From sequence record CP054387.1: a stretch of 64,000 nucleotides of DNA. One strand, 5' to 3'. Made by a program: the position numbers. Positions 6,001-12,000 of this stretch are shown one piece after another (position 1 is the first letter of the stretch; each line of letters begins with the position of its first letter). This stretch comes from Escherichia phage CMS-2020a.

Positions 6001-9000
6001 CATTTGTTTGAAGGTCGGGAATACGTAAAGTTCGGTGTTAAGACCTGTCCATTGGCGACCAACGCCAACCACTTCACCGATCCCTTTGTCTTCACCTAAT
6101 TTGTTTACTTTGATGCCAACGTATCCAGGCTCCACGCGATCACAGCCAGTAAGACCCATTGTGCAAATAGCCGCCAGAGCAACTGCAAGTAAACCTTTCT
6201 TCATTACTTATTTCCCCTTTGCTTTGATTAATGAGTTGATAAACTTACGACCAGCAATAAGACCGATTACAGGAGCACCAAAACCAACGATAACTCCAAA
6301 CATGACGGCTAAATCACTCTTGGTAGAAATCAGCGACGGAACCAGTAAACCGTAGATGAGAGCCACTGAAACGCCTGTGGCTACTGCCAATAGATAGATT
6401 TTGATCATGTGTTTTCCTATGTGGTTGTTATGCGAAAATAATAAGTAAGTACTTATATATTTTCAAGAGATAAAAAAGGCGTCCTGTGGACGCCTTGTGT
6501 TTACTCTTCTACTGACTCGGTGGGGTTGTCTTTTGCTCTTCGGTCGTCGATTGCCTGCAAAGCCGCAATGATTTCAGCCAGTGGCTTCTCCCGATACATC
6601 TCGACGATCTGCGATTTGGTGTATTTCTTGTCACCAATTTCAACTCGCCCGCTGGCGTTCTTTGGCAGGTATCCTTCTTCCAGCATGTACTCGACGAGCG
6701 ATTCGATAACGTCGAGGCCACGAGTAGGATCGAAGTAGAATTTCCAGGTGCATTTGCCATACGGTGGTGCAACTTTGTTTTTGATGCATTCTGCGCCTAC
6801 GTCCTGGCCGATCTTCTCTTTACCATCCTTCATCACCGATGCACCAAGACGGATACGTACAGAAGCGTAGAACTTCGGTGAATCTCCACCTGGAGACGTA
6901 GTAGGGTCGCCAAACATTACACCGATTTTTGTGCGAACCTGATTCAAGAAGATGATGCAGGCGTTGTATTTGCGTGCCCACAAAGCCAGAGTAGGGAAGT
7001 TCGCACTTGTCGCACGAGCCAGTGCCGTATTGTCGTTCATGTTTAGCTGATCTTTGTCTTTGGCAGTGCCTTCAGCCATCTTTTCGAACTTCTCGGCTTT
7101 GGAGTTCGGAACCATAGACGCAAGTGAGTCAGCCACGATACAGATAGGTGCTGATTCAGGAATAAGCTCTTCATCACGTACCAATTTAAGAATTGTGCCG
7201 ATCAACTCTACAGAGTCTTCGAAGGTATCAGGCTGCTTGTATACCCACTGACCGTCATCCTCATCTGCATTCAAACCATTGGCTACAGCCAGGCCAACGT
7301 CAAAACTGTTCTCATGATCGAGGAATACCGCCAGACCATCTTGTTTCTGTGCGGAGATCATTGCTGCCGTTGCCAAAAAGGTTTTCCCCGCGCTTGGTGG
7401 CCCGAATACTTCTACGATACGACCACATGGGAAACCGCCATCGTAACGACCGGAAATCGCTTTGTTTAACGGAGGAAAGCCTGTGTCAATCCAATGAGTT
7501 ACTTTCTGAATTTCGTCGTTGCTACCGATTTTCTTTTTCAGAGCAAGTGCCAGTGCGGATTTTCCTTTTGCCATGATCAGGCTCCTTTTGTTTCGTTGAT
7601 TCGTTTTAAAGCGGCGGATTCGTCGAATACAATCGCATCGTGGTTAAGGAGTCTGGATACACGAGCGAGGATTTTTACGACCTGCTCGCTGACTAATCCA
7701 AACTCGCGATCTGTCGCTTTCATTCCGGCAGCGCCTAGAATTGACGGCAGTGCGATGACAGCGTACTCACCGTGATAAAAGACAATCTCTTTTGCCAGTT
7801 GGGTAGGGGTGGTTGTAGCGCCATTAATAATCGATTTAAGCATTAGCAATACCTTTCGAATGGAAGAACAAACACTTCAAGGTCTTCAAGGAACGAACGG
7901 AAATTCAGCTCGTAGCACAGTTGCTCGAATGCTTTCACGTCACGATTGCCTTTGATTGTTTCGATTTCGGTAGGCGGAAACTTCGTCTCAATCAGGTTCA
8001 TTAGCGTGATGTTTCTCTTGAACGCTTCGAGCATTCGACAGCCTGTTTTCTCGTTGAAGGCATTCTTCGCTAGTTTGTTGAAGGCGGTCTTATGGCGTCC
8101 TTTGTCAACCACGATTGAGCCGTCGTTGATGCCGCGTACCATCGTTGCGACACTTCCCCATTCATGCAGCAGCTCTTTCGCACCGCCAGCACCAATGCCA
8201 CCAACACCGCTAATGTTGTCCGATTTATCGCCTTGTAATGCTTTTGCTTCCAAAAATGCGCGAGGAGTAGCGAATCCTGTCAGCTCCGCAAATTGCTCAA
8301 AATTAACCTGCTTGTTTTTGGCGTCTTCGCGCAGGCTTACCCAGCTTACGTTTTCGCGAACTAACTGAAGCCAGTCGCTATCGCCTGTTAACAGATAGAT
8401 GTGTTCAACAATTGGCTGCGGTGCAATGCTGGCTACCAGCAGCCCGGCCAGATCATCCGCTTCTGCATCTTTTGCAATGAGTTGGGTAACTCCAAGCGCG
8501 GTCATCATTTTGAGGATGTATGGCTTCTGGATAGCAAAGCCTTCCTTCATCTTTTTCATATCAGGATCGTCGTCGCGATTTGCTTTGTAGTCCGGGTAAA
8601 AGTCGCGACGCTTGTCACTAAATCCATCCCAAAGAATCATAGGTCGGGCATGGAGGATGGAGGCATAACGACGGACGTTCTTAACAAAGCCGAAAGCAGC
8701 CTGTACTTCCATTTCGCCGTTGTGCAATTTGTCAGATTGTTGGTGGTAATAACCCAGGCTATTGCCATCTACGAAGAGATAATTCACCGGTACATTCCTT
8801 CCAAAAAGTAAGGCGTCCGTAGACGCCTTACTGGTCACGTAATGGGATTACAGAGAGTCCAGCTCTCTCAGTAGGTCATCCAGACCTTCATCTTCCGTCG
8901 CAGATGCGGCTGCTACAGATGTCGCTGCGACTGCTTCAGACTCTTTGACTGATACTGCAACGGCAGCGGAACTTGCTTCTGGTTTAAATTCAGTTTCAAC

Positions 9001-12000
9001 GGCACGGAGGATTTCTTCATCAACCAGACTGGTTGGTTCAGAAGCTGGGGTGTGAGCGGTAGCTACAGCAGTCGCACCCTCCGTATGACCAGTGACAGAG
9101 CCAAATCCAGGCAGTGCCGCGGCCGATGTTTTCGCGGTAGAGGAAATTGCTGGTGCCGATGCAGAGGCAGTTGGTGCTGCGATGCCAATCAGACGACCCA
9201 TAGTGCGAACTGTCGAGAGAAGACGAGTTTCATCAGCCTGATTTGCGTATGCGATCAGATCATGCTGGGTATTCCAGAATTTATCTTCGATATCGCCTTT
9301 GTAGACTTTACGCTTAGGCGAGACGTCATATTTGGTATCGCGACCAGAGCCAGTACGTTTAATCAGGAATGCGTAGCCTTCCTCTTTGCTCAGTGGATTG
9401 CCGATATCATCAGCGATGTCTTCGGTGATTGCTTTGCAGATATCATCGAATACAGTAGACGGCAGCTCGATTAACTGGCATTTCTCAGCATCTGCGAAAT
9501 CCTCACGAGCAGAAAGAATGCCGTTGACCAGATAGCGAGGAGTGGCACGCATTTGACCGATGCGTTCTTCCATTGCTTTGTTACCCTTGTGACGAGCGCG
9601 ACCTTCCATCACCATTTCGCATAGCTGACAAGCGCGACCGTGAGTATGTTGCTCACAAATATAAGCGTTGGTTGCTTCTTTACCTTCCTCGTTCTGATAC
9701 TTAACGTAGTGCATACCGAAAGTCTGGAAGAACTTACCGTTTGGGTCGTCTTTATTCGGGAAGATGCGGATATAGTTGACGCCGTCTTTTAAGCGAGTCA
9801 GATCAACGTTGTTACCACGTTTGGCGGCAATGTCTTCACGAGTTTTGTTAAGCAAATCAAGTAATGTCTTAGACATGTGTTTCTCCTTGTTGTGATTTGG
9901 CCGATGGCGCTATGCGCGTTGGGCTTTCGTTCATTCGTGGCTCTTTCGAGCTGTTAAATGATAGATCAGTACTTACTTATTATCTATCAAAAATCAACGG
10001 GGAGTAATAAAGCGTTCAGAGCCTAATCGCTCTAATTCAACGATGGCCATCTTTGACGCCTGAACGATCATGTCTCGGCGATGCGAAAAGGCGGCGACAG
10101 CATGTTTGTATATGTCTGCGATGTGCCGTGCTTCATCCAACTTCTGCCGTTTAGACAGATACTGTGGGTTTGTTTTAACCTTAGCGTCCAGTACAGACTC
10201 GTTGAACTTAATGCCGTTCATACTCAAGTTCTTACGCTCTGTGTCGTATAGCTTTGCTTCAACAGCTTCAAGGTTAAGTTTTGCCTCTGCGACACTTCTT
10301 TCTGCATGAGCGAGTTTTGAGCCATACTCCATTAAAAGGCGGGGTTGTCTACGCCAGACTTCCTCCAGATTGTCTCGGTCAAACTCGAGATCAGACATTA
10401 TTTTCTCGTAAATATCGGTGATCATGTGCTTTCCTTTTTACTTATCATTTTATATTGATTATATCATTGTGATGATAAGGCAAGGAGTTCGAGGATAGGG
10501 GATATGAGGGGATAAGGGAAAACATGGCCATAGAGGCCATGTTTATGGGATCACGTCTTAATGGTTTCTGCTACGTCGGCTAATATCGCTTCTAGTCGTT
10601 CTCCCTCTTCAGGTCTGAAGTAAAGAATGTTGGGGTTAAACCCGTAAAAGACAGTAACGTCAAGGTCTGGAAGGTACTCCTTCCTGCCGACCAAATCGGA
10701 TGGCTTGTTTTTGTTGTTAAACAATGCCGTTGCCCGGCTGCCACACGTCAGCACATAGGTCGGACGCACCAGATTGATCTCTTCACGTATAAAGTCGGTG
10801 AACTGGCCGATCTCGTCTTTGGTGTAGTCTTTTTCTTTGTCTTTAACCTTCTTGCAAACGCCTGTGACATAGAGATCGCCCATGCGTAAATCTCCAGCCG
10901 TCAATAGCTTGGCCTTAAAGTCGTCGTATCCGTTCTCCATAAAGTAACCGGTTCGAGCATCATTGCCGTTCGCATTGTCCAGAATGATCATGATTTTCGG
11001 CTTAATGCCAATGCTAGGGCGGATTAGTTCATCACCTAATCCCATTTCAGCCGCCATCCGTGTCATGAGCACGTTAATCTCAGCCGAACGTTTGGGGTTC
11101 ATCTCAAACGGACGTGAGGCTTTAACTGCGTCTATGACAAGGTTTCCCATCAATTCAGCCTGGTCGCGGAGACGCTCTGGATCAGTTGCTGGCAGACTAC
11201 CTGGCTCGATGGATGCAAACGCACCTACTTTTTGCAGTGATTCGCGCACTCGACTATTACAGGCACGTTTCTCGACAGCTTCTTCGAATTGCGCCAGTGA
11301 CTCGAATTTGCCGCCAACTTTTTCTCGCGCTCTCATGATGGCTTGGCAGCCATTCTCAGAACACCCTTTCACAGCAGAGAAGGGCGCATACAGCACCTGG
11401 CTGCCATCTTCAAGCGTGCGGATCTCGATTCGGTTAGATGACACGTTAACGTCTGGTGGCAATACGCGAATACCATAGGTCAGCGCATCTTTAACCAGCC
11501 CCTGGTGTTTATCTTCGCCAAGAATAGTGAGAGCAGCAGCGAAGAACTCCGCGGGATAATGAGTTTTCAACCACATAGATTGATAACTGATTAAGGAGTA
11601 AGCAACAGAGTGTGATTTGTTGAACTGGTAGGCACCATTCTTTTCGAATGCGGTCCAGATCTCCTTCGCTTTCATCTCTGATAGCCCTGGATGTGACGCT
11701 GTAACGCGTACTGCGTTTATAGGTAGTTTTGCGCCGTACTCAAGTGCCTCTTCGACAGTTTTCAGAGTTCCGTCTTCGCATTTAAAATGTTCCGCACGGT
11801 GAATGCGCTGTGTAGTGCCATCTTCCAGCTCAACGTCTATCCAGCCAGCTTGAGCCTGAACGATGAACTTCTCGCCCATGCTCTTCATTTTTTCCATGTC
11901 TTTTTTGCCGATCGCTTTACGAACGCCGTCAGCTTCAGCCATTGTGAAGCCAGCAAGCAATCGAGTCGCGTTCATCGTCTGTTCCTGATAGAGAATCACG

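What the first reader, a model, noticed from the sequence alone, without database searches (positions are those of the whole stretch)
6501..10425. T4-like recombination set beside a DnaE-type polymerase
A RecA/UvsX-like recombinase, a gp32-like zinc SSB with acidic tail, a FEN nuclease and a possible UvsY-like mediator are clustered. That is the toolkit for recombination-dependent replication, combined here with a bacterial-type replicase and an iteron origin. The element may switch from theta replication in the plasmid state to recombination-driven replication on induction.
Basis: partly seen in the sequence, partly recalled or inferred. Interest (0 to 1): 0.4.

Follow-up and report, generated by a model that had tools for sequence, protein, structure and literature searches.

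The report
Phage-plasmid RecA, UvsY-like, gp32 recombination operon
The flagged genes are a real, strongly conserved recombination and replication gene block of a well-known type of E. coli phage that lives as a plasmid (SSU5-like), and a near-identical public phage record already labels them this way, so the find is correct but ordinary.

Summary
Five co-directional minus-strand genes lie at window 6501-10425, just downstream of a DnaE polymerase gene:
- a RecA-family recombinase
- an 88-aa protein of unknown function
- a T5-type flap endonuclease
- a gp32-family zinc SSB with an acidic LDDLL tail
- a 143-aa helical protein

The order UvsY-like, gp32, FEN, RecA is kept in 81 of 85 related loci. 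It is also kept in eight distant phage contigs, where DnaE lies directly upstream in seven.

The window is 97% identical to Escherichia phages PhiR41_1 and CMS-2020a and 94% identical to phage Cyrano. The Cyrano record already names the UvsY mediator, gp32-like SSB, RecA and Pol III alpha.

"T4-like" is only partly apt. The recombinase is RecA-type, not UvsX-type, and the FEN is probably an Okazaki-fragment nuclease.

A switch from RepA/iteron theta replication to recombination-dependent replication is plausible but untested.

The parts
6501..7574 (-). RecA-family recombinase, 357 aa, no intein
   Evidence: Pfam RecA 2.2e-42. The best solved relatives are bacterial RecA at 1e-31 to 1e-35; UvsX-type reach only 1e-9 to 1e-10. 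TIGR02012 scores 153.7 bits, below the equivalog cut-off of 325. Walker A GPPSAGKT was read from the sequence.
6476..6496 (-). Terminator-like hairpin directly after the recA stop; probable end of the operon
   Evidence: 9-bp stem with 6 G-C pairs followed by TTTTATCT. The overall count of such sites in the region is not above chance, so only its position is suggestive.
7577..7843 (-). Conserved 88-aa protein of unknown function. Its start overlaps the FEN stop and its stop abuts the recA start.
   Evidence: phrog_2207, function unknown. Homologues occur only in SSU5-like elements. Present in 81 of 85 related loci and absent from the distant lineages. Three-helix model, pLDDT 85 for the best model but 51-75 for the other four. 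No informative fold match.
7843..8838 (-). T5/Pol I-type 5'-3' flap endonuclease. The start is uncertain: GTG at 8838, or 8787 by analogy with the annotated homologues.
   Evidence: Pfam 5_3_exonuc_N 1e-23 and 5_3_exonuc 5e-12. Phage T5 5'-exonuclease 1exn at 1e-15. The homologues are annotated at 945 nt in Cyrano and SSU5.
8848..9876 (-). gp32-family zinc single-strand DNA-binding protein with an Ala/Ser-rich linker and an acidic LDDLL tail
   Evidence: Pfam gp32 1.7e-66. phrog_1192, which T4 gp32 also hits at 3.5e-16. Cys74, Cys83 and Cys86 are invariant with T4 Cys77, Cys87 and Cys90.
9994..10425 (-). UvsY-like recombination mediator candidate, 143 aa, four helices
10551..14069 (-). DnaE-type DNA polymerase III alpha with a UDG family-4-like C-terminal domain
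   Evidence: Pfam PHP, DNA_pol3_alpha, finger and HHH_6 domains. UDG_fam4 2.6e-7 at aa 1053-1168. A clear UDG domain sits on the DnaE of distant relatives.
27207..29810 (-). The phage's own DnaG-like primase (27207-28460) and DnaB-like helicase (28470-29810)
   Evidence: The helicase matches Pfam DnaB_C at 3.6e-13, above the curated cut-off. The primase matches only weakly (DNAG_N 1.6e-5 and Toprim_2 4.4e-4, both just below cut-off). Cyrano annotates the homologues as DNA Helicase and DNA Primase.
24492..25814 (-). ATP-dependent DNA ligase
   Evidence: Pfam DNA_ligase_A_M 5.8e-13.
1..1632 (+). Plasmid replicon: repA (1-1095) and an iteron array (1094-1632)
   Evidence: Pfam Rep3_N 3.9e-9. At least 11 copies of TATGCTGTCAGCGGT.

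Best explanation
The window comes from an SSU5-like phage-plasmid of E. coli. Genes 6501-10425 are the downstream part of a long, co-directional replication and recombination gene array: CobT-like, CobS-like, DnaE, UvsY-like, gp32, FEN, orf88, RecA, then a terminator-like hairpin.

Shown by tool results: the identity of each protein and the strong conservation of their order.

Inferred by analogy with the T4 UvsX/UvsY/gp32 presynaptic system:
1. gp32 coats single-stranded DNA at forks and at resected ends.
2. The UvsY-like protein, probably a ring oligomer like T4 UvsY, loosens gp32 on that DNA and loads the phage RecA.
3. The RecA filament invades another genome copy or a terminal repeat.
4. 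The phage's own DnaB-like helicase, primase and DnaE polymerase turn the resulting D-loops into forks. This restarts broken forks and produces branched concatemers for the terminase.
5. The FEN and the ligase mature the Okazaki fragments.

In the plasmid state, RepA and its iterons with the host replisome would keep the element at a few copies. The array would be silent until the repressor is lifted.
For: - Protein identities.
- UvsY fold match. Faint sequence links.
- gp32 zinc ligands and tail.
- Synteny: 81 of 85 related loci. The order is also kept in eight distant contigs, where SbcD or SbcCD follows RecA in five.
- Additional toolkit: the phage's own helicase, primase and ligase are in the window. 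An SbcCD-like nuclease, a gene annotated as RuvC, a UvsW/XPB-like helicase and a Pol III epsilon-like exonuclease are in Cyrano. The SbcCD/RuvC and helicase regions are also present at 97-99% identity in the window's nearest relatives.
- Plasmid replicon.
- Phage-plasmid biology: Cyrano is a roughly 5.5-copy plasmid that produces virions under genotoxic stress. The paper's table of genes transcribed above background in lysogeny lists no gene of this cluster (PMC9928086).
- Precedent: UvsX/UvsY/UvsW presence is used in the literature to infer recombination-dependent replication in other phages (PMC7824862).
- The repressor gene at 18250-18636 is divergent from the head of the array.
Against: - No experiment on replication intermediates exists for any SSU5-like element.
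- The 143-aa protein does not reach the Pfam UvsY model or hit UvsY by HMM against PDB sequences.
- Helical hairpins are a common fold.
- The recombinase is RecA-type, so a specific UvsY-type partnership is assumed, not shown.
- The UvsW label is weak: the Cyrano helicase matches XPB better than T4 UvsW (1.5e-12 against 4.5e-8).
- The gene annotated as RuvC has no Pfam hit.
- No gp59-type helicase loader was looked for.
- Promoter and terminator scans are not above chance overall.
- Other temperate phages make concatemers by rolling-circle replication without their own RecA.
Confidence: 0.5

Rival explanations
1. The same proteins are present, but their job is recombinational repair and genome cyclisation rather than initiating replication. 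Under this reading, RecA, the UvsY-like protein and gp32 repair broken forks during rapid lytic replication. They may also recombine terminal repeats to circularise the injected linear DNA so that it can establish as a plasmid. Concatemers would come from rolling-circle replication.
For: An element that must establish as a circular plasmid after injection needs some way to cyclise its DNA. In P1 and P22 this is done by recombination (established knowledge, not tested here). gp32 and the FEN are fully explained as replisome parts. The SbcCD-like nuclease and the RuvC-annotated gene also fit repair.
Against: The virion DNA ends of SSU5-like phages were not determined here; the packaging-literature search returned no SSU5 paper among those listed. 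The rigid coupling of the module to DnaE across distant phages suggests a link to replication as such. The two roles coexist in T4, so this is not exclusive.
Confidence: 0.35
2. The 143-aa protein is not a recombination mediator. It would be a generic helical-hairpin protein that resembles UvsY by convergence, and the phage RecA would load by itself or through host RecFOR.
Confidence: 0.1
3. The cluster has decayed or is dispensable cargo in a plasmid that no longer functions as a phage.
For: Two related loci have lost gp32, or gp32 plus FEN (L067, L083). Some SSU5-like plasmids are reported not to behave as phages (abstract of PMC8969562).
Against: All five ORFs are intact in the window. The window is 97% identical to phages propagated on E. 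coli K-12. The structural and terminase genes are intact. Cyrano makes virions.
Confidence: 0.05

Closest known systems
Escherichia phage Cyrano (pLF82, OV696614), and the SSU5 supergroup of phage-plasmids (SSU5, pHCM2, PhiR41_1, CMS-2020a)
   Same: Same genes in the same order, at 94-97% DNA identity for the E. coli phages and 82% for SSU5. The Cyrano record already labels RecA, Exonuclease, SSB T4 gp32-like, UvsY recombination mediator and DNA polymerase III alpha. RecA-like proteins are noted among the persistent genes of the supergroup (PMC7969092).
   Different: The window's RecA has no intein, whereas Cyrano's is 779 aa with one. The window has the minimal 125-bp gap between DnaE and the UvsY-like gene, where Cyrano carries HicAB and SSU5 carries three other genes.
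Bacteriophage T4 UvsX / UvsY / gp32 presynaptic system and recombination-dependent replication
   Same: Recombinase, UvsY-fold mediator and gp32-family zinc SSB with the same LDDLL acidic tail. Relatives also have an Mre11/Rad50-like nuclease, an SF2 helicase annotated as UvsW, a gene annotated as a resolvase, RNase H, ligase and polynucleotide kinase.
   Different: The recombinase is RecA-lineage, not UvsX. The replicase is DnaE, not family B. The mediator is beyond HMM reach of T4 UvsY. The genes form one block here and are scattered in T4. The host element is a temperate siphovirus maintained as a RepA/iteron plasmid. Recombination-dependent replication has not been demonstrated.
UvsY-like family in other cultured phages (Rhizobium RHEph10-like, Pseudomonas nickie-like, Enterococcus EFDG1-like)
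   Same: Homologues of the 143-aa protein's domain were found by tblastn. Several Enterococcus phage records call them UvsY-like recombination mediator.
   Different: Many members carry long acidic N-terminal extensions that the window protein lacks. Most are still annotated as hypothetical, and the PHROGs that hold them are labelled unknown function.
Phage T5 D15 flap endonuclease and the Pol I 5' nuclease domain
   Same: Both Pfam 5'-3' exonuclease domains are present, and the best solved relative is T5 FEN.
   Different: Stand-alone gene embedded between the SSB and the recombinase. Its role in recombination as opposed to primer removal is not known.

Membership tests
gp32 family (Pfam PF08804) | Full-length profile match above the curated cut-off | tested here: met
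   224.7 bits against a cut-off of 26.8, E 1.7e-66, profile positions 1-208 of 208.
gp32 family (Pfam PF08804) | His/Cys3 zinc-binding site (T4 His64, Cys77, Cys87, Cys90; residue numbers from established knowledge) | tested here: met
   Cys74, Cys83 and Cys86 are invariant in 7 sequences including T4. His56 is conserved in the 6 non-T4 sequences and lies within 2 alignment columns of T4 His64. Metal binding itself is not testable.
gp32 family (Pfam PF08804) | Acidic C-terminal protein-interaction tail | tested here: met
   The window tail EDEGLDDLLRELDSL aligns with T4 DDTDLDDLLNDL. The DDLL motif is kept in most relatives.
UvsY (Pfam PF11056 / phrog_231) | Match to the Pfam UvsY profile | tested here: not met
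   No hit for the window protein at E of 0.01 or below. Only 4 of 87 family members hit, best 0.0016. No HMM hit to UvsY chains in the PDB.
UvsY (Pfam PF11056 / phrog_231) | Match to the broader PHROG UvsY-like profile, which contains T4 UvsY | tested here: inconclusive
   Window protein 1.1e-4. 14 of 87 relatives hit, best 1.2e-7. T4 UvsY hits at 4.7e-50. hhalign profile-profile E 0.005-0.012, collinear.
UvsY (Pfam PF11056 / phrog_231) | Four-helix UvsY protomer fold | tested here: met
UvsY (Pfam PF11056 / phrog_231) | Genomic association with a recombinase and gp32 | tested here: met
   Adjacent to gp32, with RecA two or three genes away, in 81 of 85 close loci and 7 of 8 distant loci (the eighth ends before the RecA position).
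UvsY (Pfam PF11056 / phrog_231) | Heptameric ring, ssDNA binding, and loading of the recombinase on gp32-coated ssDNA | not testable with these tools
   Only a monomer could be modelled. The T4 residues Lys58 and Arg60 align ambiguously.
Bacterial RecA (TIGR02012 equivalog) | Score above the equivalog cut-off | tested here: not met
   153.7 bits against a cut-off of 325.3. It is a member of the RecA family (Pfam 145.8 bits against 27) but not an orthologue of cellular RecA.
T4 UvsX-type recombinase | Closer to UvsX than to RecA | tested here: not met
   Bacterial RecA chains score 1e-31 to 1e-35, UvsX-type chains 1e-9 to 1e-10.
T4-type recombination-dependent replication system | End-resection nuclease (gp46/47-like), branch helicase (UvsW) and resolvase | tested here: inconclusive
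   These lie outside the window. The SbcCD-like nuclease has Pfam support in Cyrano. The SbcCD/RuvC and helicase regions are present at 97-99% identity in the nearest relatives. The helicase matches XPB better than UvsW. The gene annotated as RuvC has no Pfam hit.
T4-type recombination-dependent replication system | Helicase loader that targets D-loops (gp59-like) | not tested
   No search was made for it.
T4-type recombination-dependent replication system | Recombinase-dependent branched replication intermediates | not testable with these tools
   Needs 2D gels, electron microscopy or long reads after induction.
SSU5 supergroup phage-plasmid | Near-identity to members, a RepA/iteron replicon, and siphovirus structural genes | tested here: met
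   97% identity to PhiR41_1 and CMS-2020a, and 82% to SSU5. Replicon. The large terminase matches Pfam, and the tail and head genes correspond by position and length to Cyrano's annotation.

The most novel reading that the evidence does not exclude
The block DnaE, UvsY-like, gp32, FEN, RecA, followed by SbcDC where the contig extends far enough, may be an ancient replication-by-recombination engine shared by a large lineage of roughly 100-kb phages. The lineage includes Rhizobium RHEph10-like and Pseudomonas nickie-like phages, many uncultured contigs, and the SSU5 group. In the SSU5 group a RepA/iteron plasmid replicon lies between RecA and SbcD, giving an element with two replication modes: theta replication as a plasmid, and recombination-dependent replication after induction. 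The UvsY-like family behind it is very large (3468 clusters at 50% identity) and largely unannotated. Its long forms carry acidic N-terminal repeats that resemble the gp32 tail, which hints at a built-in competitor for gp32-tail binding sites.
Probability: 0.3. Interest if true: 0.5.

Novelty: already known. Interest (0 to 1): 0.25.

Why it matters
SSU5-like phage-plasmids are common in clinical Enterobacteriaceae and can carry resistance genes. How they shift from low-copy plasmid maintenance to lytic amplification affects copy number, gene dosage and transduction.

If the RecA, UvsY-like and gp32 set drives that amplification, it would be a second well-defined case of recombination-dependent replication outside T4-like phages. 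It would also be genetically tractable in E. coli.

As it stands, the finding confirms existing annotation and offers a testable but untested hypothesis.

Tried and rejected
- **HMM searches against PDB sequences.** phmmer and a 16-sequence profile of the 143-aa family found no UvsY, only chance hits.
- **hhalign against the single T4 UvsY sequence.** Not significant: E 0.057 and 0.3. A 23-sequence UvsY profile improved this only to 0.005-0.012.
- **phmmer of the gp32-like protein against the PDB.** Found nothing, and BLASTP against T4 gp32 gave E 0.064. Membership rests on the Pfam profile and the motif alignment.
- **Locus search with the family alignment.** It returned only close SSU5 relatives. 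The search with P0103 found nothing. Distant context came from P0084, P0081 and P0088.
- **Literature.** No paper in the library links phage-plasmids to recombination-dependent replication. None discusses UvsY in SSU5-like phages. One preprint could not be opened. The search on SSU5 packaging type listed no SSU5 paper.
- **Promoter and terminator scan.** Overall counts match shuffled controls. Only the hairpin after recA is mentioned, and only for its position.
- **Rejected idea.** That the FEN is a dedicated recombination nuclease: its closest relatives are replication flap endonucleases.

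
Full report
**What is there**

The region 6501-14069 holds six co-directional minus-strand genes:
- DnaE, 10551-14069
- a 143-aa protein, 9994-10425
- a 342-aa protein, 8848-9876
- a 331-aa protein, 7843-8838
- an 88-90-aa protein, 7577-7849
- a 357-aa protein, 6501-7574

A terminator-like hairpin follows at 6476-6496.

Pfam assigns four of them:
- the 357-aa protein to RecA (2.2e-42)
- the 331-aa protein to both 5'-3' exonuclease domains
- the 342-aa protein to gp32 (1.7e-66, full profile)
- the 1172-aa protein to DNA polymerase III alpha

PHROGs agrees and adds a weak hit of the 143-aa protein to phrog_231, 'UvsY-like recombination mediator' (1.1e-4).

**Where the window comes from**

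Megablast of 6000-14500 gives 97% identity to Escherichia phages PhiR41_1 and CMS-2020a, 94% to Escherichia phage Cyrano, and 82% to Salmonella phage SSU5. The window is therefore an SSU5-like phage-plasmid.

Cyrano is the pLF82 plasmid-prophage of E. coli LF82. It is kept at about 5.5 copies and produces siphovirus particles under genotoxic stress (PMC9928086). Its curated record already names the homologous genes RecA, Exonuclease, SSB T4 gp32-like, UvsY recombination mediator and DNA polymerase III alpha subunit. The older SSU5 record calls the 143-aa homologue hypothetical. RecA-like proteins are listed among the persistent genes of the SSU5 supergroup (PMC7969092).

**Testing the gp32 assignment**

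The Pfam score of 224.7 bits is far above the cut-off of 26.8. Direct comparison with T4 gp32 is not significant by BLASTP (E 0.064) or phmmer against the PDB, so the two are distant.

The alignment shows the three zinc-ligand cysteines invariant in the window protein, in five relatives down to 22% identity, and in T4. A conserved histidine lies within two columns of T4 His64. The same acidic C-terminal motif is present: window GLDDLLRELDSL against T4 DLDDLLNDL. T4 gp32 also hits the window protein's PHROG, phrog_1192, at 3.5e-16.

**Testing the UvsY assignment**

- Sequence methods alone are marginal. There is no Pfam UvsY hit and no UvsY hit with a family HMM against PDB sequences. hhalign of the family against a 23-sequence T4-type UvsY profile gives E 0.005-0.012. 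These alignments are collinear over 106-113 columns and in the same register.
- An exhaustive HMM search shows the family is very large: 3468 representative clusters at E of 1e-3 or below. Of 87 diverse members, 14 hit phrog_231 (best 1.2e-7) and 4 weakly hit Pfam UvsY. T4 UvsY itself belongs to phrog_231.
- tblastn finds relatives in Rhizobium, Pseudomonas and Enterococcus phages. Several Enterococcus phage records annotate them as UvsY-like recombination mediator.

I conclude it is a remote UvsY homologue. Its mediator activity remains inferred.

**The recombinase and the nuclease**

The recombinase is clearly nearer to cellular RecA (1e-31 to 1e-35) than to UvsX-type proteins (1e-9 to 1e-10). 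It falls well short of the RecA equivalog threshold, 153.7 against 325.3 bits. It is therefore a divergent phage RecA, not a UvsX.

The nuclease's closest solved relative is the phage T5 flap endonuclease, followed by the Pol I 5' nuclease domains. That points to Okazaki-fragment processing. 'T4-like' thus describes the mediator and the SSB, not the whole set.

**Is the clustering meaningful?**

I fetched 157 loci around homologues of the 143-aa gene from IMG/VR, of which 102 are distinct.
- Of 85 with at least 6.5 kb downstream, 81 have UvsY-like, gp32, FEN, orf88, RecA in that order with near-constant spacing.
- Two have deletions removing gp32, or gp32 plus FEN.
- Two are distant lineages that lack only orf88.

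In eight distant contigs (L098, L099, L175, L176, L178, L180, L182, L183) the UvsY-like protein is about 28-34% identical to the window's and often carries a long acidic N-terminal extension. All eight keep UvsY-like, gp32, FEN in the same order. Seven have DnaE directly upstream (L182 starts inside the block). Seven have RecA after FEN (L175 ends inside the block). SbcD or SbcD-SbcC follows 1.6-2.3 kb after RecA in five. This conserved neighbourhood across deep divergence is independent support for a shared function.

**Wider toolkit**

Inside the window the element has its own DnaB-like helicase (28470-29810), a gene weakly matching DnaG-type primase domains and annotated as primase in Cyrano (27207-28460), and an ATP-dependent ligase (24492-25814).

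Outside the window, Cyrano encodes several more functions:
- SbcD- and SbcC-like proteins
- a gene annotated as a RuvC resolvase, which has no Pfam hit
- a Pol III epsilon-like exonuclease
- RNase H
- polynucleotide kinase
- an SF2 helicase annotated as UvsW

The SbcCD/RuvC region and the helicase gene are present at 97-99% identity in the window's two nearest relatives. The UvsW label is weak: the helicase matches XPB at 1.5e-12 and T4 UvsW at 4.5e-8.

The plasmid replicon is repA at 1-1095 (Rep3_N) with at least 11 iterons at 1094-1632.

**How it most likely works**

*Shown:* the protein families, the fold match and the conserved order.

*Inferred from T4 biochemistry (established knowledge):*
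1. gp32 coats ssDNA.
2. The UvsY-like oligomer remodels gp32-ssDNA and loads the phage RecA.
3. RecA forms D-loops on another genome copy.
4. The phage helicase, primase and DnaE convert the D-loops into forks.
5. The FEN and the ligase finish the lagging strands.

This would restart forks and build branched concatemers for packaging, while RepA and its iterons handle low-copy maintenance.

Two things support lytic-phase expression, and both are indirect. The repressor gene (18250-18636) is divergent from the head of the array. None of the cluster's genes appears in the published list of Cyrano genes transcribed in lysogeny.

The main rival is that the same machinery serves repair and cyclisation of the injected DNA, with concatemers made by rolling-circle replication. 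The two are not exclusive. No study of replication intermediates in SSU5-like elements was found.

**Verdict**

- The gene-level interpretation is supported.
- The replication-switch idea is reasonable but untested.
- A near-identical public record already carries these annotations, so the feature counts as already known and of modest interest.
- What this analysis adds: explicit structural evidence for the UvsY assignment; evidence that DnaE, UvsY-like, gp32, FEN, RecA is a deeply conserved block; and the observation that in the SSU5 group the plasmid replicon lies between RecA and SbcD.

Noticed in passing
window 10566-10913 (DnaE aa 1053-1168): The C-terminus of DnaE resembles a family-4 uracil-DNA glycosylase (TIGR00758, 2.6e-7, below cut-off). 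In distant relatives L098 and L099 the DnaE C-terminus gives a clearer Pfam UDG hit (2.8e-13). This would be a DnaE-UDG-like fusion occupying the position where cellular DnaE has its usual C-terminal region.
   Followed up: partly
window 6501-7574; L001 6503-8842; L098 8545-10722: The RecA gene is polymorphic for an intein. Of 85 related loci, 21 carry an insertion of about 1.27 kb. Cyrano's RecA is 779 aa, and the L098 RecA has intein-splicing and LAGLIDADG domains. The window copy has no intein.
   Followed up: partly
relatives of window 10551-14069 (for example L020, L024, L046): In 21 of 80 related loci the DnaE gene spans about 4.3 kb in two tblastn pieces, against 3.5 kb here. This suggests an insertion of about 0.8 kb (an intein or a mobile intron). 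It was not examined.
   Followed up: no
window 10426-10550: The gap between DnaE and the UvsY-like gene is a cargo hotspot. It ranges from 128 to 2915 bp in 80 related loci. Cyrano has the HicA/HicB toxin-antitoxin pair there, and SSU5 has three other genes. The window has the minimal form.
   Followed up: partly
window 7577-7843: An 88-aa gene sits between FEN and recA, overlapping the FEN stop and abutting the recA start. It is conserved in the SSU5-like clade and absent from distant lineages that keep the rest of the block. It is left unannotated in Cyrano. The three-helix model has no informative fold match.
   Followed up: yes
proteins P0084, P0088, P0109; locus L098 5271-6143: Long members of the UvsY-like family (290-420 aa) have very acidic, low-complexity N-terminal extensions. 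These carry repeated DDLEALL / LDDLEGLED motifs that resemble the gp32 C-terminal LDDLL tail.
   Followed up: no
window 1-1632, compared with L176, L178, L183: In distant relatives SbcD follows RecA within 1.6-2.3 kb. In Cyrano the interval is about 5.9 kb and contains repA with its iterons, membrane-protein genes and small ORFs. The plasmid replicon therefore appears to sit inside an older replication-recombination block.
   Followed up: partly
window 18003-18249: An AT-rich region lies between the putative repressor gene (18250-18636, plus strand) and the first gene of the CobT-to-RecA array (18002-17790, minus strand). It holds two copies of TATATCATA at 18053-18061 and 18074-18082, 21 bp apart. 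These are possible operator sites.
   Followed up: no
window 14250-17689: A CobS-like AAA (MoxR-type) ATPase and a CobT-like VWA protein lie directly upstream of DnaE in the same orientation. Their role in a phage replication array is unexplained.
   Followed up: no
loci L067 and L083: Two related elements have deletions inside the block. L067 lost FEN and most of gp32. L083 lost gp32. These may be defective phage-plasmids.
   Followed up: no
window 5374-6408: An SPFH/Band-7 (stomatin-like) membrane protein and a 66-aa membrane protein follow the recA terminator. A promoter-like site (10 of 12 matches) lies at 6466-6438 on the minus strand.
   Followed up: no
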